Positions 1,964-12,417 of a stretch of DNA of 64,000 nt are shown here, piece by piece (the stretch's first letter is position 1; every line of letters starts with the position of its first letter). Origin of the DNA: Candidatus Multivoradales bacterium (GTDB lineage: Bacteria; Acidobacteriota; Thermoanaerobaculia; Multivoradales; J023); NCBI GenBank assembly GCA_965248925.1, contig CBDFLE010000006.1:4576001-4640000 (forward strand), given 5' to 3'. The translations under genes were made by a program, and so were the position numbers. The notes beneath the pieces are model-generated. The model ran no database searches, was not told where the DNA came from, and worked only from the letters and a program-made list of their open reading frames with translations.

Positions 1964-2611
1964 TCACTGGCTGTTGATCGGCTCGAAGTGGATCACTTGG
2001 TCGAATTCGCCGCCTTTGAAACGGTAGACCTTGCCGGCGGCAAAGTACCACCAGGCAGATTCGCCAGTGGCCGCCTCTGCCGCCGCGTCGATCCGATCGG
2101 GGCGCCCCATCTCTTGGTAGACCCTCTGCTCTGCGGCGCTGGTCATGCCGGCGAGGAATCGCTGCAACCAGCGCATCGCCTCGGCATCCTCGACCGTCAG
2201 ATCACGCCGCACGGAACTGCCGCCGCGCATCTCTGCCGAGATCTCCAGCCGGCTGAAGACATCGAGTTCGTCGCGGCCTTGGCGGCGCACCGGCAAGGCG
2301 GTGGCGAGATAGAAGATCTGGTAGTGATCGTTGCGCGCCCATTCGAGCTGGAAGCGGCCGTCCTTGCCAGTGGTGGCCACCACCCGCAGCAAGTCGACAT
2401 CGCGACGCTTCATGCGCCGCAGATCGAGCTTACGATGGTAGGCTTCGAGCACTACCTCGACGCTGCCGAGTGGCTGGCCAGCGGCATCCGTGATTCGACC
2501 ACTGACCTCCACCGTCTTGCTCAGTTGGCGCTTCTTCTTTCTCGCCTCAGTCGGCCCAGCGCTGTGCAGCAGGCCGGCGATCAAAGCGACGAGGATCAAC
2601 CGACGGCTCAT
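1964..2611 (-). CDS. Exported protein with carboxypeptidase-regulatory-like (transthyretin fold) domain and BamE/SmpA-like C-terminus
   Basis: Signal peptide; VSGRITDAAGQPLGSVEV motif; C-terminal MGRPD...WWY. ATG 2611 overlaps the lolA stop (ATGA). Confidence 0.65.
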   Translation of the reverse strand: MSRRLILVALIAGLLHSAGPTEARKKKRQLSKTVEVSGRITDAAGQPLGSVEVVLEAYHRKLDLRRMKRRDVDLLRVVATTGKDGRFQLEWARNDHYQIFYLATALPVRRQGRDELDVFSRLEISAEMRGGSSVRRDLTVEDAEAMRWLQRFLAGMTSAAEQRVYQEMGRPDRIDAAAEAATGESAWWYFAAGKVYRFKGGEFDQVIHFEPINSQ

Positions 2612-3276
2612 TCGGCCGCGCTCCATTCGATATTCGCCGGTGGCCTGAAGAGGCCGTCGTGGTCGATCTCAGTGTAATTGCTGAGTTCGAAGCGGGTCAG
2701 GTTGGCCTCGCTGTCGGTGTACTCCATGCCAAGCACCCGGTGATTGGTCGGATCAAGGCGGATCTTGGCCCGCAGCCGGCCGCCGCTGGCGCGCTGGCTG
2801 AGGATGACCTCGTAGGTGCCGTCCGCGAGCTGGCGACTCTCGGCGGAGTAGCGCTCGCGCAGAGTGTCGATGTCTTCCAGCAGCAGGTCGAGGCCGGGCT
2901 CGCGCTCTGCTTGGATCGAATACCGCTGGCCGCTGTCCTCGCCCTCGTTCCAGGCATAGACCTCGCCATCGCAGAGCAGGAAGTGCTTTTCGTAGGGCTC
3001 GGTGTAGTTCCAATGCAGGCAGCGCGGCAGCCATAGCGAGATTCCGCCCTTCTCCTGATCGCCTGAAGAAAAGCCGGCGGGAACGTACGTCTGGACGAAC
3101 TTGGCCGCCAAGCGCTGACCCTCGAGATCTTGCCGCATCTCGCCGAGCAGCTGCCAAGGACTGGTGGCCAAGGCCGGGGTGGCGGCGAGCAAGAGCAGCA
3201 AAGTGCCAAGGGCCGCGAAATGGACGGCTCGGTGGGCTGTGGATCGGTACTTGGGCTGGTTCATCGATTCTCCCAT
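2608..3276 (-). CDS. lolA: Outer-membrane lipoprotein carrier protein LolA family
   Basis: AKFVQT...HWNYTEPYEKHFLLCDGEVYAW...NLTRFELSN...LFRPP. Start taken at ATG 3276 (3264 is an alternative); the track's 3363 start is probably too long. Confidence 0.8.
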   Translation of the reverse strand: MGESMNQPKYRSTAHRAVHFAALGTLLLLLAATPALATSPWQLLGEMRQDLEGQRLAAKFVQTYVPAGFSSGDQEKGGISLWLPRCLHWNYTEPYEKHFLLCDGEVYAWNEGEDSGQRYSIQAEREPGLDLLLEDIDTLRERYSAESRQLADGTYEVILSQRASGGRLRAKIRLDPTNHRVLGMEYTDSEANLTRFELSNYTEIDHDGLFRPPANIEWSAAE

Positions 3277-3522
3277 TGCGGGACGATGGTAGCAGCAGCG
3301 GGCAGTCATGGAGTAGAGAGTCGTTGGGGGATCACGAGCAAGCCTCAAGGAACCAAGCTGCACAGGGTGGACTAGTGACCTGGATGATGCGACACGTCGC
3401 TATCTTCCGCAGATGGATGAGAGTGCCAGGGAGCGGGGTCATCGAAAAGCCTAGCCTCTATTGCGAATGGGGCTGAGCCTCCTGTCGGCAGCCCTTCCGC
3501 TAGTATGAGCAACTCTTGGGTC

Positions 3523-3551
3523 TTGACAGGTGGGAAGAGCATTGTCACAAT
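3523..3551 (+). promoter_or_regulatory. sigma70-type promoter of the DUF5131/tcmP cassette
   Basis: TTGACA (3523-3528), 17 nt, CACAAT (3546-3551) with TGn extension, 21 nt before ATG 3573. Confidence 0.65.
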
Positions 3552-3572
3552 AGCGTAAGCGAGGCGTAAGTT

Positions 3573-4376
3573 ATGAGTGCGAACAGCTCAATCGAATGGA
3601 CCAATTCAACATGGAATCCGGTTCGCGGTTGTACCAAGGTCAGTGCCGGCTGCGCCCATTGCTACGCAGAGACGTTCGCGGAGCGATGGCGCGGCATCAA
3701 AGGACACCCTTACGAGCAGGGATTCGATCTGCGCCTCGCGTCTAACAAATTACTCGATCCGCTGACTTGGCATCGGCCTCGTTTGATCTTTGTGAACTCG
3801 ATGAGTGATCTCTTTCATGAGGGTGTCGAGTCTGACTATGTCGATCTCGTCTTCGAAGTGATGCGTCTTGCGGATTGGCACACATACCAGGTTCTCTCGA
3901 AGAGGGCTGGAAGAATGCGGGAGATTGTGTCGTCGCATCACCGAGATCTAGCGAACTTGGAGCATATTTGGCTAGGTGTTAGCGTCGAGAATAGAAAGCA
4001 GGGGATACCTCGAATCGAGGATCTACGCCAGACACCAGCAGGTGTGCGGTTTCTTTCGATAGAGCCTCTTCTTGAGCATATCGGGGAGTTGAACCTCGAA
4101 GCTATCGATTGGGTGATTGTCGGTGGCGAAAGTGGACCTGGAGCACGCCCGATGCGCCGCTCTTGGGTAGTGGATGTTCATCGGCAGTGCCAAGCAGCTG
4201 GTGTGCCGTTTTTCTTCAAACAGTGGGGCGGGGTTCGGAAGAGTAAGAACGGTCGTGAATTAGATCGGAAAACCTACGACGAATTCCCGGATTTCCCTGC
4301 AAGGCGGCGGCCGACTCATGCCGAGCGTCGTAGGCGTCTAAGCGAAGCAATGGCGTTGCTCAAGGAGGTGGCTTGA
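3573..4376 (+). CDS. DUF5131 / phage Gp37-Gp68 family protein (CX6CX2C radical-SAM-like)
   Basis: SSIEWTNSTWNPVRGCTKVSAGCAHCYA, IFVNSMSDLFH, RFLSIEPLL, WVIVGGESG, PFFFKQWGG family signatures. Confidence 0.92.
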   Translation: MSANSSIEWTNSTWNPVRGCTKVSAGCAHCYAETFAERWRGIKGHPYEQGFDLRLASNKLLDPLTWHRPRLIFVNSMSDLFHEGVESDYVDLVFEVMRLADWHTYQVLSKRAGRMREIVSSHHRDLANLEHIWLGVSVENRKQGIPRIEDLRQTPAGVRFLSIEPLLEHIGELNLEAIDWVIVGGESGPGARPMRRSWVVDVHRQCQAAGVPFFFKQWGGVRKSKNGRELDRKTYDEFPDFPARRRPTHAERRRRLSEAMALLKEVA

Positions 4377-4379
4377 GAT

Positions 4380-5543
4380 TTGCTAAGTCTAGATTTTTAC
4401 CAAGGCCGTGAACAGACGTACATCAAACACTATGTGTTAGAGAGGTATCTTCAGAAACTTGCTTACAAGTTAGGATGGAGTGGCAACGATGCGATCGTGA
4501 GCTACGTGGACTGTTTTGCTGGTCCTTGGAATAGTATGTCAGATGATCTTGCTGACACTTCGCCGGCTATCGCGATTCGGGAACTGCAAGCTGTTCAAAA
4601 GACGCTACGGGAGCGTGGGCGCATGCCTCCTTTTCTCAAGTGTCTATTCATCGAGAAAGATAAATCGTCATGGAAAGTTCTCAGCAGAATGTTGGAGTCT
4701 GTTGAGAACATTGAGGTCAAGGCGATTCTGGGAGAGTTTGAAGCTGAAGTTGATGCCGTCCTCGACTTCGTAGGTGAGGGGTTCGCCTTTTTCTTCATCG
4801 ACCCTACTGGTTGGACTGGGTACTCTCTGGATGTTATTCGGCCCATGTTGAGACACCCTCGCTGTGAAATTTTGATCAACTTCATGACTAAGTTTTTGGT
4901 CCGGTTTATCGATGCGGATCTAGACGACAAGGCTCGCGCGGGGTTCGAGCATCTCTTTGGATCATCGGACTGTCGGAAGCGATGGCGAGATCTGACTGGT
5001 CTCGATCGAGAGGACGCGATCGTGGCCGCATATTGCGACAGGGTGCGTGAAGCAGGAAATTTCAACTACGTTGCCCACACAGTGGTGCTTGATCCCCTGG
5101 CAGATCGCTCGCACTTTCACCTGATCTATGCAACGGATCATCCCGAGGGGCTTCGAACTTTCCGAAACGAAGCGGAGAGGCCAGCGAGAGAGGTTCAACG
5201 GAAGGCGCGTCACGCTGCGCAGCAGCATCACGAGCTGGAGATTTCGGGTCAGATGGGACTTTTTGGATCTCCAGCTCGCAGCTACTCTGATGAGTTGGAG
5301 GAGCGTTATCATCGATTGGCCCAGCAGAAGGTACTGGGAACCCTACGGAGTGTGCGGAGAGTCTCGTTTGATCACCTGGAAATGGAAGCCTTGCACTTTC
5401 CCATGACCGGCACGCAAGATCTTAAGGGCTGGCTAGAGCGCTGGCGCCAGCAAGGGGCGATTGAGTTCGAAGGTCTGAGGCAAAGAGCGCGAGTGCCGCA
5501 GCCCGGGAAGAACCACTACGTTGTCTATTTGCGCGAGGACTGA
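4380..5543 (+). CDS. tcmP: Three-Cys-motif partner protein TcmP (SAM-dependent methyltransferase-like fold, C-terminal wHTH-like region)
   Basis: T-x-x-KH...L..YL, YVDCFAGP, FIEKD, FFFIDPTG, EILINF, HLIYAT-x-H; 3 nt after the DUF5131 stop with an AAGGAGG SD. Confidence 0.85.
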   Translation: MLSLDFYQGREQTYIKHYVLERYLQKLAYKLGWSGNDAIVSYVDCFAGPWNSMSDDLADTSPAIAIRELQAVQKTLRERGRMPPFLKCLFIEKDKSSWKVLSRMLESVENIEVKAILGEFEAEVDAVLDFVGEGFAFFFIDPTGWTGYSLDVIRPMLRHPRCEILINFMTKFLVRFIDADLDDKARAGFEHLFGSSDCRKRWRDLTGLDREDAIVAAYCDRVREAGNFNYVAHTVVLDPLADRSHFHLIYATDHPEGLRTFRNEAERPAREVQRKARHAAQQHHELEISGQMGLFGSPARSYSDELEERYHRLAQQKVLGTLRSVRRVSFDHLEMEALHFPMTGTQDLKGWLERWRQQGAIEFEGLRQRARVPQPGKNHYVVYLRED

Positions 5544-5586
5544 TCTGATTTTGGAGAGTTGCTAAACGGGAGAAAGACCCGCCGTT

Positions 5587-5796
5587 TCACACTTCAACCT
5601 CGATCGGCCTGCTGTGGGCTGTCGCCGGGATGGTCGCCGGGGTAATATCCGCCAGCACGAGGTCGTAAGCGTCACGGAGGTTAACTTCAAGCTCGTCGAG
5701 GGTTTCGCCCTGGCTGAAGACCCCCGGCACTTCCTTCAGGCGTCCGACTTATCCATCGCCGTCCTGCCAGTACTCCATGGTGAAAGCGTGTCGCAT
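5587..5796 (-). pseudogene. hicB: HicB-family antitoxin pseudogene, followed by an overlapping HicA-like start fragment
   Basis: GGAGGT SD, then MRHAFTMEYWQDGDG*VGRLKEVPGVFSQGETLDELEVNLRDAY...; in-frame TAA at 5749-5751. GTGA overlap starts MKRRVFL, which then loses similarity. Confidence 0.75.
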
Positions 5797-5836
5797 CAAG
5801 TGGACCTCCGGCGTCTATTGTAGCCGGAAGTAGCCG

Positions 5837-7384
5837 CTAATGTCTGAAGTGGCGGCGGCCGGTGAGCAGCATGGCGATGCCGTGTTGATCGGCGGCGTCG
5901 ATGACTTCTTGGTCGCGCTTGCTGCCACCGGGCTGCACCACCGCGGTGACGCCGGCTTGGGCCAAGGTGTCGAGGCCGTCGCGGAAGGGGAAGAAGGCGT
6001 CGGAGGCGGCAGCGCTGCCGGCGATCGGCAGGTTGGCTTTTTCGACCGCCAGCTTGCAAGAGTCCACCCGGCTCATCTGGCCGGCGCCGATGCCGACCGT
6101 CTGCTGGGCGTTGGCGAGCACGACGGCGTTGGATTTCACTCCCCGTGACACCCGCCAGGCAAGTTCCAAGGCCTGGCGCTCGGCGACCCTGGGCTGGCGT
6201 TTTGTTGGGCAGATCCAGGTTGCGGGATCGTCTGCCTCGGCGTCGGGTGCTTGGGCCAGGAAACCGCCGTCCAAGCCGCGCAAGCTGATCGCCCCTGCAC
6301 TCGGGAGATAGGGCGGAGCTTCGATCAAGCGCAGGTTCTTTTTGGCCGCGAAGCGGCTTTGGGCGTCGTCGTCGAAGCCGGGTGCGATCACCACCTCGAC
6401 GAATAGGCCGGCCATGGCTTCGGCTAGGGCGCCATCGGCGTTGCGATTAACAGCGATGATCGAGCCAAAGGCGGACAGTGGATCGCAGGCCAGCGCAAGT
6501 TCGTAGGCTGCGGCCAGAGTCGGTGCCAGGGCCACGCCGCAGGGGTTGTTGTGTTTGACGATCACCACCGCTGGTTCGTCGAAGAGGGCGACGATCTGGC
6601 GCGCCGCGTCGGCGTCGAGCAGGTTGTTCCAAGACAGCTCTCTGCCTTGCAGCTGGCGCATGCCGCCGAACACTCCGGGGCCGTCTTCCAGCCGGTAGAC
6701 CGCCGACGGCTGATGCGGGTTCTCACCGTAGCGGGGAGTCATCTCGCGGCTCATGTCGAGCATAAGGTGGCGCGGGAAGCGGTTTTCTGCCTCCCCGCTC
6801 TGCTGTGCCAGCCAGCCGGAGATAGCGGCGTCGTAGGCCTGAGTGTGGCGAAAGGCCTTAATCGCCAGGCCGCGCCGCACCGGCTCCGGGACGATCCGCT
6901 CACCGTCTTCGAGGGCGGCTTGAATCTGTGGGTAGTCGTCGGGATTGACCACCACCGTGACGCCGCGAAAATTTTTCGCTGCGCCGCGGATCATCGAGGG
7001 TCCGCCGATGTCGATCATCTCCACTATTTCTTCGAAAGCGGCGCCGGCGGCGACAGTCTGGCGAAAGGGGTAGAGGTTGACCACCACCAGATCGATCGGC
7101 TCGAGGTTGTGATCCTGTAACTCACTGAGGTGGGCGGCGCGACCGCGGTCGGCCAGAATACCGCCGTGAATGGCCGGATGCAGGGTCTTGACCCGGCCGC
7201 CGAGGATCTCGGGGAAGTGAGTGATATCGGCTACCGGGGTCACCGGCACACCCGCTTGCTCGAGGTGGCGGAAAGTTCCACCGGTTGAGATAATCTCGAT
7301 TCCCAAAGTGGCCAGGGCCTGGGCGAATTCGACTAGGCCTCGTTTATCGTAGACAGAGATCAGGGCGCGCTGTGCGGGAAGCAT
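5837..7384 (-). CDS. purH: Bifunctional AICAR transformylase / IMP cyclohydrolase
   Basis: ALISVYDK, STGGT, GRVKTLHP, IDIGGP, RYGENPHQ, KHNNPCG, GAGQMSR, SDAFFPF, terminal RHFRH. Confidence 0.98.
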   Translation of the reverse strand: MLPAQRALISVYDKRGLVEFAQALATLGIEIISTGGTFRHLEQAGVPVTPVADITHFPEILGGRVKTLHPAIHGGILADRGRAAHLSELQDHNLEPIDLVVVNLYPFRQTVAAGAAFEEIVEMIDIGGPSMIRGAAKNFRGVTVVVNPDDYPQIQAALEDGERIVPEPVRRGLAIKAFRHTQAYDAAISGWLAQQSGEAENRFPRHLMLDMSREMTPRYGENPHQPSAVYRLEDGPGVFGGMRQLQGRELSWNNLLDADAARQIVALFDEPAVVIVKHNNPCGVALAPTLAAAYELALACDPLSAFGSIIAVNRNADGALAEAMAGLFVEVVIAPGFDDDAQSRFAAKKNLRLIEAPPYLPSAGAISLRGLDGGFLAQAPDAEADDPATWICPTKRQPRVAERQALELAWRVSRGVKSNAVVLANAQQTVGIGAGQMSRVDSCKLAVEKANLPIAGSAAASDAFFPFRDGLDTLAQAGVTAVVQPGGSKRDQEVIDAADQHGIAMLLTGRRHFRH

Positions 7385-8367: not shown

Positions 8368-8443
8368 GCCCAGGTAGCTCAGTTGGTAGAGCACTCGACT
8401 GAAAATCGAGGTGTCGGTGGTTCAAATCCGCCCCTGGGCACCA
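8368..8443 (+). tRNA. tRNA-Phe(GAA)
   Basis: GCCCAGG...CCTGGGC-A-CCA acceptor, AGCTCAGTTGGTAGAGC D arm, CTGAAAA anticodon loop, GGTTCAAATCC T arm. Confidence 0.97.
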
Positions 8444-8521: not shown

Positions 8522-11500
8522 TCAAGGGCTCACCAGATCCACCCAATCGCGCATCGCACCCAGGCTACAGCCGAACTTGCGATGACCGTTGCCGAGCCCG
8601 AGCTGCTCGATGATCTGCTCACAGGAGCAGCCGGCAGTGTCTTTGGTAGTGAAGAAGACCTGCCCGCTGCCACCATCTGAGTCGCTATCGGAGTCACCGT
8701 CTGAGTCACTATCCGAGCCACTGTCGGAGTCACCATCTGAATCATCGTCCGAGCCACTATCGGAGTCGCCGTTTGAATCATCGCTTCCGCGGCTGAGGAA
8801 TAGGCCGCGTTGCAGGGTGTCAAAGATGTTGTCGCCATCGATCAGGGCGTAGCGATTGGGTCGTAGGGCAACCGTCGGCACACTTTCCGGGATCACCGTG
8901 TTCGGGCAAACGTCCTCGGCATCGAGCACTCCGTCGCCATCGTTGTCGACATCAGCAGGCTCGGTGATGGTCAGGGTCGCGGTCGCCGGCTCGCTCGCTG
9001 GTAGGCCGGCTTGCAGCAGGTTGCTGGTGATGTTCAGGTAGTCACCGGCCGCCGCTGAGGCAGGCACCTGCAAGTCGACACTGAAGCTGCACGAGCCGCC
9101 CGGTAGCAGGCTACCGCCGCTGAAGGTCAGGAACGAGCTGCCGTCGAGCAGTGAGCTTTCGCCGCAGGTGTCCGTGGCCGGCAGGCCGATCGCCTCGAGG
9201 CCGAGCAGAGCTGCTCCCAGATCGTCCGAGAAAGATAGGGCGAAGACGCTGCTGGTCAGGCTCAGATTCTCGATGTTGAAGGTCAAAGCGACAGTGTCGC
9301 CGGCCTCCGCGGTGCTCGGAGAGAACGACTTGCCGAGAGCCAGGAAGTCGATTCGCAGAGTATCGGTCGCCGCGTTTCCGCGCACCGCCAGACCGCCGAG
9401 ATCGCCGATGGTTTCGCTGGTGGTGCTGACCGCCTCGGTGCCGAGCAGCACTGCGGCAGGCACCGCCAAGGTGACATCGAAGCTACAAGATGCCGCCGCC
9501 GCCAGGCTGCCGCCGGTGAAGCTCAACAGGCTGGTGCCGCTGATCTGCGAGCCGCTACCGCAGATATCCGCCAAGCTGCCGCTGGCACTGACCAGCCCAC
9601 TGAGGGCGGTTTCGAGGTCATCGCTGAAGGAGATCAACGTCACCGAGTCGACCTTGCTCAGGTTGGTGATCGTAAAGCGCAGCGTGACGTTGTCGCCCGG
9701 ACCTACCGGATCGTCGATGAATTCCTTGGCCAAGACCAGGAAGTTGGCGTCGAGGACCAGCTCGTCGGAGGCGTTGGCGAACAGAACTGTGCTGCCCTCG
9801 ATGGTCGCCGAGAAGCCCGCCGTGGTGCTGATGTAGGTATCGGGCTGTGCCTTCGTCGGCACCAGCAGGCCGAGATCAAAAGTGCACGACTCGCCGGTCG
9901 CCAGACTGCCGCCCTGGAAGACCAGCAGCTGTCCACCACTCAAGCCATCTAAGGAAGAGCCCAAGCCGCAGATATCGGCCAGGGGTAGGCCGGATCCGGA
10001 CAGCCCGTCCAATGCGCTGTCGAGATCGTCGCTGAAGAAGATCTTGGTCGCGGCGGAGACCGGGCTGTCATTCTGGATCGTGTAGCGCAAGGTCACCGCG
10101 CCGCCTGGTAGCACCGGATCGTTGAGGAACTCCTTGGACATGCTGAGGCCGGTGATGCTCAGCTCAGCGGTCGCGGGCGGAGTCATGGTGGTCAGGCCGA
10201 GCACCGTCGCCACCACCACGCTGGTGGTATTGGTGTGGGCGCCAGCCGGTGCTGTCGATGGCACCTGCAGAGTGACGTCGAAGCTGCAAATCTCGCCCGC
10301 CGCCAGGGTGCCGCCGGTGAAGCTCAAGGTCATCGTGCCGCTGAGCTGCGAGCCAGCACCACAAACATCAGTGGCCGGCAGGCCGCTAGCCACCAGACCG
10401 CTGAGGGCGGCCTCGAGGTCGTCGGTGAAGTTGACGCTGGAAGCATCCCCTGGGGCGCTCTCGCTGTGCTCGAGGGTGAAGCGCAAGGTCACCGTGCCGC
10501 CCGGGGTTGCCGGGTCGTCGATGAACTCCTTGACCATCTGCGGTGCTCCGACCACCACCAGATCATCGCTGGCGGTGCCGCCGGTGAGCTTGCTGCCGCC
10601 GACCATGGCGGTCACCGTGCTGGTGGTGTTGGTGTAGGTGCCAGCGGCGGCGCCCACCGCGACATCGAGGGTGATCGCAAAGGTGCAGGACTCGCCGGCT
10701 CCGAGACTGGCGTCGGCGATCACCAGCCTGGCAGGAATGGCGTCCGAGCCGGTGGGGTTGATCCGCGGCGTGTAGGTCGCGGTCGAGCCGCTGCCGCAGA
10801 AGCCGGCGGCTGGCACTGCCGAGGCGGTCGGCAGCTCGATCGCGAACTCGTCGACGAAAGAGATCTCGGTGGCAGCGTCGCTGGCGCTGGGGTTGGAGAG
10901 GGTGAACTCCAGGGTCACCGAGCTGCCGGCACCCACTGGATCGTCGACGAAGCTCTTGCTCAGCTGCGGCGCGGCGTCGACGAACAGCAAGTCGGTCGCC
11001 GGGCTGCCGGTGACCGAGCTACCGCCGATGTTGGCGTTGATCGCGCTGGTGGTGTTGGAGAACGTTCCCGAGGGAGCGCTGGCCGGCAGTTGCAGAGCGA
11101 CGCTGAAGGTACAGGTTCCCTCGATCCCGAGGCTGCCGCCGCTCAAGGTGAGCAGACTGCTGCCGGACAGCTGGGAACCACTTCCGCAAGGCTCGGCGAG
11201 CGGCAAGCCAACCGCTACCAGACCGCTGATGACGGCGTCGAGATCGTCGGTGAAAGCGATGTTCGTGGCGTCGCCTCGACGGTCGAGGTTGCGCACCGTG
11301 AATTCGAGGATGACACTGCTTCCCGGGGTGGTCGGGTCGTCGACGAAAGATTTGCCCAGGACGATCTGCTCGATGGCCACGGTCAGCGTCGCGCTGGCCA
11401 TGCCACTAGACCGCGCCGGGCCACCGAACTGGGTAGTCGAGGTCAGCTCGCCGGTGGTGTTGCCGAGCATCCCGACAGCGTTGCCGAGCACGTCGACGCT

Positions 11501-12247
11501 GAGCGTGCAGCTGCTGTTGCCGGCGATCGTGGCACCGTTGAAGAAGGCTGGCGAGTAGGAGATCGTGCTGCCACCCGGTGGGGCAGAGATGGTGCCGCCG
11601 GCGCAGTCGGTCGAAGCGTTGGCCGGGCCGGTAATCACCATGCCGTCCGGCAGGTTGTCGCTGAACGTCAGATTGGCCGCCGGGTCTGGATTGGCGCTGT
11701 TGTCGATGGTCAGAGTCAGGGTGCTACGGCCGCCAAAGAAGACCGTGCTCGGGGCGAAGCTCTTGCTAAAACCGGGGCGGTCGGCAGCGACGGTGAGGTC
11801 GGCGCTCGCGCTGCCGCTGTTGCCGGCATCGGAAGTTAGATCGCCGGTGATATTGGTGTGGGTGCCCACCGTGCTGCTGGTCACGTCGACGCTGATCATG
11901 CAGTTACTCGCTGCACCGACACCGCCGCCGCTGAGGCTGATCGAGGTACCGCCGGCGGTCGCGCTCAGCGTGCCCAGGCAGCTCGAGCTGGCGTTTGCCG
12001 GGTTGGCGATGGTCATCCCGGCGGGTAGGTTGTCGACCACTGCCAGGTTACGCAGGGCCAGGGCACCCGAGTTGCTGATCTCGAGCTGCAATGTGCTGAC
12101 CGCCCCCGGGCCGACAGTGCTCGGGGAGAACGACTTGGAGAGATCTGGCAGCTGGGCTTGTACTCCGGCCGCCAAGACGATGAAGGGTAGGACGAGCAAT
12201 ATCGCGATGTTGAGTCGACGGGACAGCGGCAGCAGGAGAGACTTCAT
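8522..12247 (-). CDS. Large secreted adhesin-like protein with 8 DUF11-like beta-sandwich repeats, a TSP3-like Ca-binding motif and a Ser-Asp tract
   Basis: GAGGT SD before ATG 12247; signal peptide; 8 repeats of about 135 aa starting xxxKSF/KEF; DNDGDGVLDAEDVCP; SD repeat; Cys-containing C-terminal domain. Confidence 0.85.
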   Translation of the reverse strand: MKSLLLPLSRRLNIAILLVLPFIVLAAGVQAQLPDLSKSFSPSTVGPGAVSTLQLEISNSGALALRNLAVVDNLPAGMTIANPANASSSCLGTLSATAGGTSISLSGGGVGAASNCMISVDVTSSTVGTHTNITGDLTSDAGNSGSASADLTVAADRPGFSKSFAPSTVFFGGRSTLTLTIDNSANPDPAANLTFSDNLPDGMVITGPANASTDCAGGTISAPPGGSTISYSPAFFNGATIAGNSSCTLSVDVLGNAVGMLGNTTGELTSTTQFGGPARSSGMASATLTVAIEQIVLGKSFVDDPTTPGSSVILEFTVRNLDRRGDATNIAFTDDLDAVISGLVAVGLPLAEPCGSGSQLSGSSLLTLSGGSLGIEGTCTFSVALQLPASAPSGTFSNTTSAINANIGGSSVTGSPATDLLFVDAAPQLSKSFVDDPVGAGSSVTLEFTLSNPSASDAATEISFVDEFAIELPTASAVPAAGFCGSGSTATYTPRINPTGSDAIPARLVIADASLGAGESCTFAITLDVAVGAAAGTYTNTTSTVTAMVGGSKLTGGTASDDLVVVGAPQMVKEFIDDPATPGGTVTLRFTLEHSESAPGDASSVNFTDDLEAALSGLVASGLPATDVCGAGSQLSGTMTLSFTGGTLAAGEICSFDVTLQVPSTAPAGAHTNTTSVVVATVLGLTTMTPPATAELSITGLSMSKEFLNDPVLPGGAVTLRYTIQNDSPVSAATKIFFSDDLDSALDGLSGSGLPLADICGLGSSLDGLSGGQLLVFQGGSLATGESCTFDLGLLVPTKAQPDTYISTTAGFSATIEGSTVLFANASDELVLDANFLVLAKEFIDDPVGPGDNVTLRFTITNLSKVDSVTLISFSDDLETALSGLVSASGSLADICGSGSQISGTSLLSFTGGSLAAAASCSFDVTLAVPAAVLLGTEAVSTTSETIGDLGGLAVRGNAATDTLRIDFLALGKSFSPSTAEAGDTVALTFNIENLSLTSSVFALSFSDDLGAALLGLEAIGLPATDTCGESSLLDGSSFLTFSGGSLLPGGSCSFSVDLQVPASAAAGDYLNITSNLLQAGLPASEPATATLTITEPADVDNDGDGVLDAEDVCPNTVIPESVPTVALRPNRYALIDGDNIFDTLQRGLFLSRGSDDSNGDSDSGSDDDSDGDSDSGSDSDSDGDSDSDSDGGSGQVFFTTKDTAGCSCEQIIEQLGLGNGHRKFGCSLGAMRDWVDLVSP
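8671..8789 (-). repeat. Low-complexity coding tandem repeat (Ser-Asp-Gly tract)
   Basis: Recurring GAGTCACC(A/G)TCTGA and CCGAGCCACT units encoding SDDSNGDSDSGSDDDSDGDSDSGSDSDSDGDSDSDSDG. Confidence 0.85.
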
Positions 12248-12417
12248 CGATTCAGACCTCGAATACAAACGGATTAAACGAGCACAGGAGGTGTACCTCC
12301 CAAGGCTCAGAGGGATCAGATCTAAGGTAGAACGGAACAAGGCTGGGGGAAAAGATGAAATTGAATGATGTCAAACTAGTCTTGCCAGAGGCTCAGGTCA
12401 ATTGGCAATATTTCTGA

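What the first reader, a model, noticed from the sequence alone, without database searches (positions are those of the whole stretch)
3523..5543. Stand-alone radical-SAM-like (DUF5131) + methyltransferase-like (TcmP) cassette: candidate DNA-modification / anti-phage system
Seen: two tightly coupled ORFs, visibly lower in GC than their flanks, with their own near-consensus promoter, lying opposite to the surrounding lolA and purH genes. ORF1 has CX6CX2C (CTKVSAGCAHC). ORF2 has a SAM-binding DxFAG motif, a DPxG motif like that of amino-methyltransferases and a wHTH-like tail. Known: the two families co-occur, often in mobile or phage contexts; I know of no demonstrated biochemistry for them. Inference: an Fe-S radical enzyme plus a DNA-binding MTase-fold partner could install or act on an unusual base modification. 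No nuclease is present, so it is not a classical R-M system.
Basis: partly seen in the sequence, partly recalled or inferred. Interest (0 to 1): 0.75.

Follow-up and report, generated by a model that had tools for sequence, protein, structure and literature searches.

The report
Mobile radical-SAM plus methyltransferase-like gene pair
Two tightly coupled, horizontally acquired genes encode an iron-sulfur radical enzyme resembling a DNA-repair lyase and a fast-evolving methyltransferase-shaped partner; the pair is already catalogued as an untested anti-phage candidate and its chemistry is still unknown.

Summary
ORF1 (3573-4376, +) is a DUF5131/Gp37-Gp68 protein with CX6CX2C. ORF2 (4380-5543, +) is TcmP (TIGR04474). 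The pair has 53% GC against 64.5% in its flanks. It interrupts a purH-lolA junction that is uninterrupted in 10 of 10 relatives, so it is an insertion, not core genome.

Predicted folds are confident. DUF5131 is a radical-SAM barrel closest to spore photoproduct lyase (Z 13.2). TcmP is a class I methyltransferase closest to the rRNA m6A methyltransferase RlmJ (Z 16.6). It keeps the SAM-loop and a D-P-x-G-W catalytic motif and has a winged-helix-like tail.

The genes are obligately linked: DUF5131 lies directly upstream in 78 of 80 loci, and many natural single-chain fusions exist. TcmP evolves much faster than DUF5131.

The family matches PADLOC's unvalidated candidates PDC-M30/M41, and this scan reported the pair at least 77 times on other DNA. 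Most homologous loci sit alone among housekeeping genes; a minority adjoin R-M or Abi genes, and some lie in plasmid, ICE or prophage regions.

Best reading (inferred): a mobile two-enzyme DNA base-modification module in host-parasite conflict. Whether it serves defence or counter-defence is open. This is a new member of a known, uncharacterised kind.

The parts
3523..3551 (+). sigma-70-like promoter candidate: TTGACA, 17 nt, CACAAT with an upstream TG
   Evidence: 10 of 12 positions match, but the region holds 2 such sites against 1.2 +/- 1.1 in shuffles. A comparable site (3 or fewer mismatches) lies upstream of the pair in 17 of 73 loci including the window, and no sequence motif is shared.
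3573..4376 (+). DUF5131 / phage Gp37-Gp68 family protein (267 aa), radical-SAM superfamily, CX6CX2C at C20/C27/C30
   Evidence: PF07505 E 8.8e-97, 323.8 bits. PDC-M30B and PDC-M41B E 2.4e-102. phrog_2045. AF2 pLDDT 94.4. Best fold match is spore photoproduct lyase, Z 13.2.
4362..4369 (+). Shine-Dalgarno AAGGAGGT for ORF2, inside the end of ORF1 (translational coupling)
   Evidence: Read directly from the sequence.
4380..5543 (+). TcmP (387 aa): RlmJ-like class I methyltransferase-fold domain (about residues 1-270), a long helix, then a winged-helix-like C-terminal domain (about 300-387)
   Evidence: TIGR04474 137.5 bits against a cut-off of 53. AF2 pLDDT 92.8. RlmJ Z 16.6, rmsd 3.4, 209 aligned residues. 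Foldseek E 3e-6. Conserved motifs.
3364..5836 (.). approximate extent of the inserted DNA between lolA (start 3363) and purH (stop 5837)
   Evidence: In 10 of 10 relatives purH and lolA are direct neighbours with no cassette. GC falls from about 0.64 to 0.48-0.56 across this span.
5587..5814 (-). HicB/UPF0150-like antitoxin remnant with an in-frame TAA; lies inside the inserted span but is probably not part of the system
   Evidence: One search gives the frames. Pfam hits are weak: UPF0150 E 0.0055 and HicB_lk_antitox E 0.0078, both below cut-off. It was not found in the loci held then (L001-L125), the 80 cassette loci among them.

Best explanation
This is a horizontally acquired copy of the TcmP/DUF5131 two-gene module, closest to PADLOC candidate PDC-M30. 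That identification is close to certain.

Mechanism, all inferred. The two proteins work as one enzyme on nucleic acid, most likely DNA.
- DUF5131 is the autonomous, highly conserved catalytic core. It would hold a [4Fe-4S] cluster on CX6CX2C and cleave SAM to a 5'-deoxyadenosyl radical. Like its closest structural relative, spore photoproduct lyase, it would abstract a hydrogen from a flipped-out base.
- TcmP is the dependent, fast-evolving partner. It would dock through its winged-helix tail and flip a purine into an RlmJ-type pocket (FAGPW SAM loop, D-P-T-G-W catalytic loop). It would use a second SAM to alkylate an exocyclic amine, or the position activated by DUF5131.
- The product would be an unusual base modification.

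Biological role. The module is used in host-parasite conflict. It marks the carrier's DNA or disables incoming DNA. Whether it serves defence or counter-defence is not decided by the evidence.
For: Shown by tool results:
- Family hits.
- Insertion into conserved synteny: 10 of 10 relatives lack the cassette between purH and lolA.
- Patchy distribution: TcmP is found in 14 of 61 related genomes, counting G000.
- The pair is more than 3 GC points below its flanks in 56 of 66 loci and never more than 3 points above.
- Radical-SAM fold: VIA ranks 1-19 are all radical-SAM enzymes, with SPL first at Z 13.2, rmsd 3.0, 197 residues aligned.
- RadicalSAM.org lists DUF5131 as Megacluster-5-2, next to SPL at 5-3 (PMC9477430, one passage read).
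- TcmP fold: RlmJ Z 16.6 and DUF519 Z 16.5, against 12-13 for generic methyltransferases.
- The same motif order is seen in E. coli RlmJ.
- A fused homologue aligns to RlmJ with BLASTP E 9e-6 and carries a precomputed PF04378 hit.
- Obligate linkage: DUF5131 lies directly upstream on the same strand in 78 of 80 loci. It is adjacent in 9 of 9 fetched relatives' loci, in either gene order.
- Single-chain DUF5131-TcmP fusions: 110 of the 120 listed clusters cover at least 97% of the 558-aa fused query.
- ParB-N-terminal-domain-DUF5131 fusions point to DNA.
- Asymmetry: the second DUF5131 in this genome and the phage copies tested have no TcmP, whereas TcmP was not seen without DUF5131.
- DUF5131 is more conserved than TcmP in 76 of 76 loci (62.6% against 39.7% mean identity).
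- Conflict contexts: next to type ISP R-M, Eco57I-type methylase with GIY-YIG nuclease, Abi genes, and a prophage immunity repressor.
Against: - No experiment on any member was found. The literature searches returned only annotations and surveys.
- The closest structural relatives of TcmP (RlmJ, Trm1) act on RNA, not DNA.
- The cysteine motif is CX6CX2C, not the canonical CX3CX2C.
- Foldseek gave no hit at E <= 0.001 for DUF5131.
- The Pfam RlmJ model does not hit the window's TcmP, and hhalign against a single RlmJ sequence was not significant.
- Most of the 32 homologous loci examined are flanked by housekeeping genes, so guilt by association is weak.
- One plasmid context looks like a conjugative leading region, which points to counter-defence rather than defence.
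- The order of the two reactions and the identity of the base are guesses.
Confidence: 0.45

Rival explanations
1. Radical-based restriction. TcmP recognises and, by methylation, protects the host's own sites. DUF5131 is the effector that damages unmarked incoming DNA by radical hydrogen abstraction. The pair would then be a nuclease-free analogue of an R-M system.
For: No nuclease is present. The pair is listed as a PADLOC defence candidate. Some copies adjoin R-M or Abi genes, or the prophage immunity repressor. TcmP evolves fast, as a specificity or sensor subunit would.
Against: The dependence runs the wrong way for a toxin-and-protector logic. DUF5131 occurs without TcmP in this genome and in phages, while TcmP was not seen alone. 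The fused forms lack the winged-helix tail. No phage assay is reported in the text I could read (supplements closed).
Confidence: 0.15
2. Counter-defence or self-protection cargo of mobile elements. The pair modifies the element's (or the host's) DNA so that restriction systems no longer cut it, like orphan methyltransferases in plasmid leading regions and phages.
For: In a Sulfitobacter plasmid the pair sits among SSB, ParB, RadC, DUF932 and a methyltransferase-helicase. It occurs in an ICE-type P. aeruginosa plasmid beside a helicase and transfer genes. In pCAR1 it forms an integrase-DUF5131-TcmP unit between IS elements. DUF5131 is present in 180 phage and 434 plasmid records. That the Sulfitobacter gene set is typical of leading regions is recalled, not tested here.
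Against: In the window and in most of the 32 loci examined the pair is a lone chromosomal insert with no element around it. Other copies lie beside Abi and R-M genes, as defence genes do.
Confidence: 0.2
3. DNA-damage repair module. DUF5131 reverses a base lesion or cross-link as spore photoproduct lyase does, and TcmP finds and flips the lesion.
For: SPL is the closest solved structure. It is also the neighbouring megacluster in RadicalSAM.org. RadC genes lie nearby in one plasmid.
Against: TcmP keeps an apparently intact SAM-binding and catalytic motif set, which a pure lesion reader would not need. Patchy, low-GC, fast-evolving, mobile behaviour is unusual for repair genes. I saw no LexA-type palindrome in the window's promoter region when reading, and I ran no formal search.
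Confidence: 0.1
4. RNA modification. TcmP methylates a purine in rRNA or tRNA as RlmJ and Trm1 do, and DUF5131 elaborates it. This would change translation, for example to resist or to cause translational shut-off during infection.
For: The best structural matches of TcmP are rRNA and tRNA amino-methyltransferases: RlmJ Z 16.6 and Trm1 Z 14.4. Many radical-SAM enzymes act on RNA.
Against: ParB-DUF5131 fusions, the SPL likeness, the winged-helix-like tail and the R-M neighbourhoods all point to DNA.
Confidence: 0.1

Closest known systems
PADLOC phage-defence candidates PDC-M30 (A+B) and PDC-M41 (A+B); Payne et al., bioRxiv 10.1101/2024.01.29.577857
   Same: The two-gene architecture is the same (TcmP = A, DUF5131 = B). 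ORF1 matches both B models at E 2.4e-102. ORF2 matches the long PDC-M30A models best.
   Different: ORF2 matches the A models only weakly (E 2.3e-10 for M30A, 0.002 for M41A), so it belongs to a TcmP subfamily those models barely cover. The candidates were nominated by embedding in known defence systems. In the passages I read they are not reported as tested, and the supplementary tables were not available.
[quoted passage not shown]
   Same: Both models are passed well above their cut-offs, and the defining adjacency is present.
   Different: Nothing differs. This is the family, and the family has no known function.
Spore photoproduct lyase (radical-SAM DNA repair enzyme, PDB 4fhc)
   Same: It is the best structural match of DUF5131 (Z 13.2, rmsd 3.0, 197 residues). 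It also sits in the neighbouring RadicalSAM.org megacluster.
   Different: Sequence identity is 11%. The motif is CX6CX2C rather than CX3CX2C. There is no sequence-level hit to any PDB chain. DUF5131 is 267 aa against 340, and it has a dedicated methyltransferase-fold partner that SPL lacks.
RlmJ / DUF519 (23S rRNA m6A2030 methyltransferase, PDB 6qe5, 2oo3)
   Same: It is the best structural match of TcmP (Z 16.6 and 16.5; Foldseek E 3e-6). The blocks occur in the same order: K-H near the N-terminus, D-x-(F/H)-A-G, (T/G)-S-P, and (I/L)-D-P. A fused homologue aligns to it at E 9e-6.
   Different: Pfam PF04378 does not hit the window's protein, and hhalign was not significant. The catalytic loop is D-P-T-G-W, not D-P-P-Y. 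TcmP has an extra winged-helix-like tail and a radical-SAM partner. RlmJ is a housekeeping, stand-alone rRNA enzyme.
NCBIfam TIGR04471 'radical SAM mobile pair protein A'
   Same: It is a distant sequence relative of ORF1 (E 9.8e-22) and is likewise described as half of a mobile pair.
   Different: The score of 77.5 bits is far below the cut-off of 355, so ORF1 is not a member.

Membership tests
Pfam PF07505 DUF5131 (phage Gp37/Gp68) | HMM score above the gathering cut-off over the whole domain | tested here: met
   323.8 bits against a cut-off of 28.9; profile positions 1-243 of 243 are matched.
Pfam PF07505 DUF5131 (phage Gp37/Gp68) | N-terminal three-cysteine motif | tested here: met
   C20-x6-C27-x2-C30. 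C27 and C30 are invariant and C20 is at least 90% conserved in 42 sequences.
NCBIfam TIGR04474 TcmP | HMM score above the curated cut-off | tested here: met
   137.5 bits against a cut-off of 53.
NCBIfam TIGR04474 TcmP | encoded next to a PF07505 three-Cys protein | tested here: met
   The gap is 3 nt in the window. DUF5131 is adjacent in 78 of 80 homologous loci.
PADLOC PDC-M30 / PDC-M41 | both components A and B detected as neighbours | tested here: inconclusive
   B matches at E 2.4e-102. A matches only at E 2.3e-10 (M30A) or 0.002 (M41A). PADLOC's own system rules and thresholds were not run.
PADLOC PDC-M30 / PDC-M41 | anti-phage activity | not testable with these tools
   The passages read do not report these candidates as validated. 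The supplements were not seen.
Radical SAM superfamily | partial TIM-barrel radical-SAM core fold | tested here: met
   The AF2 model has pLDDT 94.4. VIA ranks 1-19 are radical-SAM enzymes with Z 8.8-13.2.
Radical SAM superfamily | canonical CX3CX2C cluster motif | tested here: not met
   The spacing is CX6CX2C. Variant spacings are known in the superfamily (recalled). RadicalSAM.org lists DUF5131 as a subgroup.
Radical SAM superfamily | [4Fe-4S] binding and reductive SAM cleavage | not testable with these tools
   This needs purified protein.
RlmJ / DUF519 amino-methyltransferases (PF04378) | family HMM hit | tested here: not met
   PF04378 has no match anywhere in the window's genome and no Pfam family matches ORF2. 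Only one fused homologue, P0375, carries a precomputed PF04378 hit.
RlmJ / DUF519 amino-methyltransferases (PF04378) | fold and motif order (SAM loop after strand 1, acidic residue after strand 2, D-P-x-aromatic loop after strand 4) | tested here: met
   Z 16.6. F46/G48/P49/W50, E92 and D141/P142/G144/W145 are conserved and follow predicted strands 39-44, 85-92 and 135-140.
Classical restriction-modification system | a nuclease partner | tested here: not met
   There are only two ORFs in the insert, and neither has a nuclease domain.
NCBIfam TIGR04471 radical SAM mobile pair protein A | HMM score above the curated cut-off | tested here: not met
   77.5 bits against a cut-off of 355.

The most novel reading that the evidence does not exclude
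DUF5131 and TcmP form one composite two-SAM enzyme: a radical-SAM core welded to an RlmJ-type base-flipping methyltransferase, as the natural fusions show. It would install a chemically new purine hypermodification in DNA. This would be a previously unknown class of DNA-modifying enzyme that mobile elements and hosts trade as a nuclease-free immunity or counter-immunity mark.
Probability: 0.25. Interest if true: 0.8.

Novelty: new member of a known kind. Interest (0 to 1): 0.35.

Why it matters
DUF5131 is a very large family: 38,785 cluster representatives match at E <= 0.001. It is a radical-SAM subgroup with no known reaction. TcmP is its dedicated partner with no known reaction either.

This copy is compact and self-contained. 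It has its own promoter-like site and a strong internal ribosome-binding site, and it is clearly delimited as an insert, so it would be a convenient construct for a first biochemical test.

The analysis narrows what to look for:
- a DNA purine modification made by an SPL-like radical enzyme together with an RlmJ-like amino-methyltransferase;
- the natural fusion proteins as the best targets for purification.

The locus itself is a typical member of a pair that databases and this scan have already flagged many times.

Tried and rejected
- Complex prediction of DUF5131 with TcmP gave no verdict (score 0.00, controls not run). It says nothing either way.
- Sequence search of PDB found nothing significant with the TcmP profile (best E 0.24, a ribosomal protein) or with DUF5131 (E 0.45).
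- hhalign of the TcmP alignment against a single E. coli RlmJ sequence was not significant.
- I tried to build an RlmJ profile from the same phylum. Only 5 of 151 genomes had weak PF04378 hits, so I dropped this.
- Pfam on the TcmP C-terminal 92 residues gave no hit. PF22560 (GMT-wHTH), suggested by the language-model search, was matched by 0 of 42 alignment members and was not found in the paper library.
- A search for longer fused TcmP forms (679-2000 aa) found none, which is weak evidence.
- Flanking repeats: only a 12-nt perfect inverted repeat (3385-3396 / 5787-5798) brackets the insert. About 0.2 such pairs are expected by chance in 2.8 kb (my estimate). Aligning the two flanks showed nothing more. 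No target-site duplication was seen.
- No sequence motif is shared upstream of the pair in 73 loci.
- RNA evidence: no RNA holder was listed among the sequencing runs.
- Phage DUF5131 neighbours (phiE125 gp38, TChen gp65) and the gene after the second copy in this genome are not detectable TcmP relatives.
- The tblastn counts of TcmP in plasmids and phages (30 and 5 records) are underestimates. The pCAR1 TcmP was missed by tblastn and found only by the HMM.
- The neighbour tallies rest on crude longest-ORF gene calls in 32 of 80 loci, namely the first 32 of the 38 loci with at least 6.5 kb on both sides.
Full report
**What is there**

The window holds two same-strand ORFs. ORF1 is 3573-4376 (267 aa). 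ORF2 is 4380-5543 (387 aa, TTG start). They are 3 nt apart, and an AAGGAGGT ribosome-binding site lies inside the end of ORF1. Both sit between a LolA-family gene (2608-3363, minus strand; PF03548) and purH (5837-7384, minus strand).

The pair has 53.1% GC against 64.5% in the flanks. A TTGACA-17-CACAAT site with an upstream TG lies at 3523-3551. Such sites are about as frequent in shuffled sequence, so it is only a candidate promoter.

**Family identity**

- ORF1 matches Pfam PF07505 (DUF5131, 'phage Gp37/Gp68') at E 8.8e-97 over the whole model.
- ORF1 also matches phrog_2045 and the B components of PADLOC candidates PDC-M30 and PDC-M41 at E 2.4e-102.
- ORF1 is only a distant relative of TIGR04471 (77.5 bits against a cut-off of 355).
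- ORF2 matches the long PDC-M30A models weakly (E 2.3e-10) and has no Pfam family.

PDC systems are computational candidates, nominated because examples are embedded in BREX, DISARM, type I R-M or Hma loci. In the passages I read, most are unvalidated (bioRxiv 10.1101/2024.01.29.577857; PMC12988326). The supplementary tables could not be seen.

Literature searches for DUF5131, TcmP, PF07505, Gp37Gp68, PDC-M30, PDC-M41 and 'Gp68 family' gave little:
- a listing in RadicalSAM.org (DUF5131 = Megacluster-5-2, spore photoproduct lyase = 5-3; PMC9477430, one passage);
- annotation tables (PMC12445080, where a S. meliloti TcmP gene lies next to hna; PMC12429752);
- two P. aeruginosa defence surveys, seen in the listing only.

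I found no biochemistry.

**It is an insertion**

In 10 of 10 related genomes fetched, the block orf265-purH-lolA-orf220 is conserved. There purH and lolA are direct neighbours with no cassette between them.

TcmP is patchy. It occurs in 14 of 61 related genomes (13 above cut-off), counting this one.

In 66 homologous loci with enough flank, the pair is more than 3 GC points below its flanks in 56 and never more than 3 points above (mean difference -7.0 points).

The insert also contains a HicB/UPF0150-like remnant with an in-frame stop (5587-5814, minus strand). It does not accompany the cassette in any other locus held (L001-L125).

**The two genes are one functional unit**

- Among the 80 best genomic loci encoding the full-length TcmP form, spread over many phyla, DUF5131 lies directly upstream on the same strand in 78. 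One locus has no upstream DNA, and one has DUF5131 on the opposite strand.
- In 9 of 9 fetched TcmP loci of relatives DUF5131 is adjacent, in either gene order. Only the 10 best places of 15, counting the window's own, were fetched.
- Natural single-chain fusions exist. P0127 (558 aa) is DUF5131 (residues 1-240) plus TcmP (268-552).
- Of the 120 best clusters found with P0127, 110 cover at least 97% of it.
- These fusions lack the C-terminal tail.
- Two other representatives fuse a ParB N-terminal domain to DUF5131, which points to DNA.

The dependence is one-sided. This genome has a second DUF5131 next to a lysozyme-like gene and a serine recombinase, with no TcmP. Phage copies tested also have no detectable TcmP neighbour. 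I did not see TcmP without DUF5131.

DUF5131 is always the more conserved of the two: 62.6% against 39.7% mean identity to the window's proteins, in 76 of 76 loci. Earlier notes of this scan reported the same pattern on other DNA.

**Folds**

*DUF5131.* The AlphaFold2 model has pLDDT 94.4. Its best match among about 48,000 PDB representatives is spore photoproduct lyase (Z 13.2, rmsd 3.0, 197 residues). Ranks 1-19 are all radical-SAM enzymes. Foldseek alone found nothing at E <= 0.001, with SPL best at 5e-3. The cluster motif is CX6CX2C. W14, D79, H103, K110, G184, E186, G188 and R192 are also invariant.

*TcmP.* The model has pLDDT 92.8.
- Residues 1-270 form a class I methyltransferase fold. 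It is closest to E. coli RlmJ (23S m6A2030 methyltransferase; Z 16.6, rmsd 3.4, 209 residues) and to a Legionella DUF519 protein (Z 16.5).
- Trm1 follows at Z 14.4. Generic methyltransferases score 12-13 (Foldseek E 3e-6).
- The conserved blocks sit where a working amino-methyltransferase needs them. G-R-E-Q-T-x-x-K-H lies at the N-terminus. D-x-F-A-G-P-W follows strand 1. E92 follows strand 2. D-P-T-G-W follows strand 4.
- E. coli RlmJ, read from the K-12 record, shows the same order: G-N-x-x-D-x-x-K-H, D-T-H-A-G-A-G and I-D-P-P-Y.
- A fused homologue (P0375) carries a precomputed RlmJ-family Pfam hit and aligns to RlmJ at BLASTP E 9e-6. I picked P0375 for that hit.
- The Pfam RlmJ model does not hit the window's protein, and hhalign against one RlmJ sequence was not significant. 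TcmP is therefore 'RlmJ-like', not a member.
- Residues 302-383 have the helix-strand-helix-helix-strand-strand order of a winged helix. A language-model search placed this part nearest to clusters in which 35-44% of members carry PF22560 'GMT-wHTH'. No Pfam hit confirms this.

**Genomic company**

In 32 loci with long flanks I took the two nearest ORFs on each side. Most matched unrelated housekeeping families once each. N6_Mtase, HsdM_N and Methylase_S were each hit by 3 ORFs, and Eco57I by 2.

A control set of 125 ORFs from the outer ends of the same loci showed scattered single defence hits (DrmA, type I REase). No type I methylase or specificity genes appeared among the families listed. 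Association with R-M genes is therefore real but limited to a minority of loci.

Annotated examples point in different directions:
- after a type ISP R-M gene in Leptospira biflexa p74;
- beside an N6/Eco57I methylase and a GIY-YIG nuclease in Rhizobium phaseoli;
- beside two Abi genes in Leisingera;
- directly after the immunity repressor of Gordonia prophages;
- in an integrase-DUF5131-TcmP unit between IS elements on pCAR1;
- on an ICE-like P. aeruginosa plasmid;
- among SSB, ParB, RadC, DUF932 and a methyltransferase-helicase on a Sulfitobacter plasmid. I recall this gene set as typical of conjugative leading regions, where anti-defence genes gather.

**How it most likely works (inferred)**

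DUF5131 is the autonomous radical-SAM core. TcmP is a dependent partner that brings base flipping, a second SAM site and, in this subfamily, a DNA-binding tail.

The simplest chemistry that uses both is a two-step modification of a purine in DNA. One step is radical activation by DUF5131. The other is alkyl transfer by TcmP to an exocyclic amine or to the activated position.

The one-sided dependence argues against a scheme of toxic effector plus protective methylase. Fast evolution of TcmP fits a specificity or target-contact role.

I put the DNA-modification reading at about 0.45. The rivals are:
- counter-defence cargo, 0.2 (this overlaps the main reading in chemistry and differs in who benefits);
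- radical-based restriction, 0.15;
- repair, 0.1;
- RNA modification, 0.1.

Complex prediction gave no verdict, and no RNA-seq run was listed.

**Verdict**

The element is a clean horizontal insertion. The idea that it is a candidate modification or defence module is reasonable, but it is already on record in TIGRFAMs/NCBIfam naming, in PADLOC PDC-M30/M41, and in at least 77 earlier notes of this scan in at least 76 genomes.

- the abundant natural fusions;
- the ParB fusions;
- the one-sided dependence;
- the motif-level link to RlmJ;
- the mixed defence and counter-defence contexts.

It is a new member of a known but uncharacterised kind, of moderate interest.

Noticed in passing
window 5587-5814 (minus strand): A HicB/UPF0150-like antitoxin remnant with an in-frame TAA lies between TcmP and purH. 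There is no HicA partner. It was found neither in the relatives' purH-lolA loci nor in the 80 cassette loci.
   Followed up: partly
window 3385-3396 and 5787-5798: A perfect 12-nt inverted repeat (TGATGCGACACG / CGTGTCGCATCA) brackets the low-GC insert. The right arm overlaps the start of the HicB-like remnant. About 0.2 such pairs are expected by chance, and the flanks show no further similarity.
   Followed up: partly
own genome G000:C6:2927771-2928766 (locus L014 1498-2538): A second, longer DUF5131 (346 aa) has no TcmP. It is followed by a pesticin/phage-lysozyme-like gene and a serine recombinase, so the context is probably a prophage or another mobile element.
   Followed up: partly
window 8368-8443 (+): tRNA-Phe (GAA) lies 2.8 kb right of the cassette. 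The syntenic purH and orf265 genes separate it from the cassette, so it is not the integration site.
   Followed up: yes
window 8522-12340 (minus strand): A 1272-aa ORF is built of many similar repeat modules of about 110-130 residues ('...FSDDL...GLP...CG.GS...') and ends in a Ser/Asp-rich tail. It looks like a large repetitive surface protein.
   Followed up: no
locus L037 (P. aeruginosa plasmid NZ_CP124633.1) 11403-12127: The DUF5131 between two TcmP paralogues aligns in two pieces that change frame at about residue 166. It is not in the gene table, so it may be a pseudogene.
   Followed up: no
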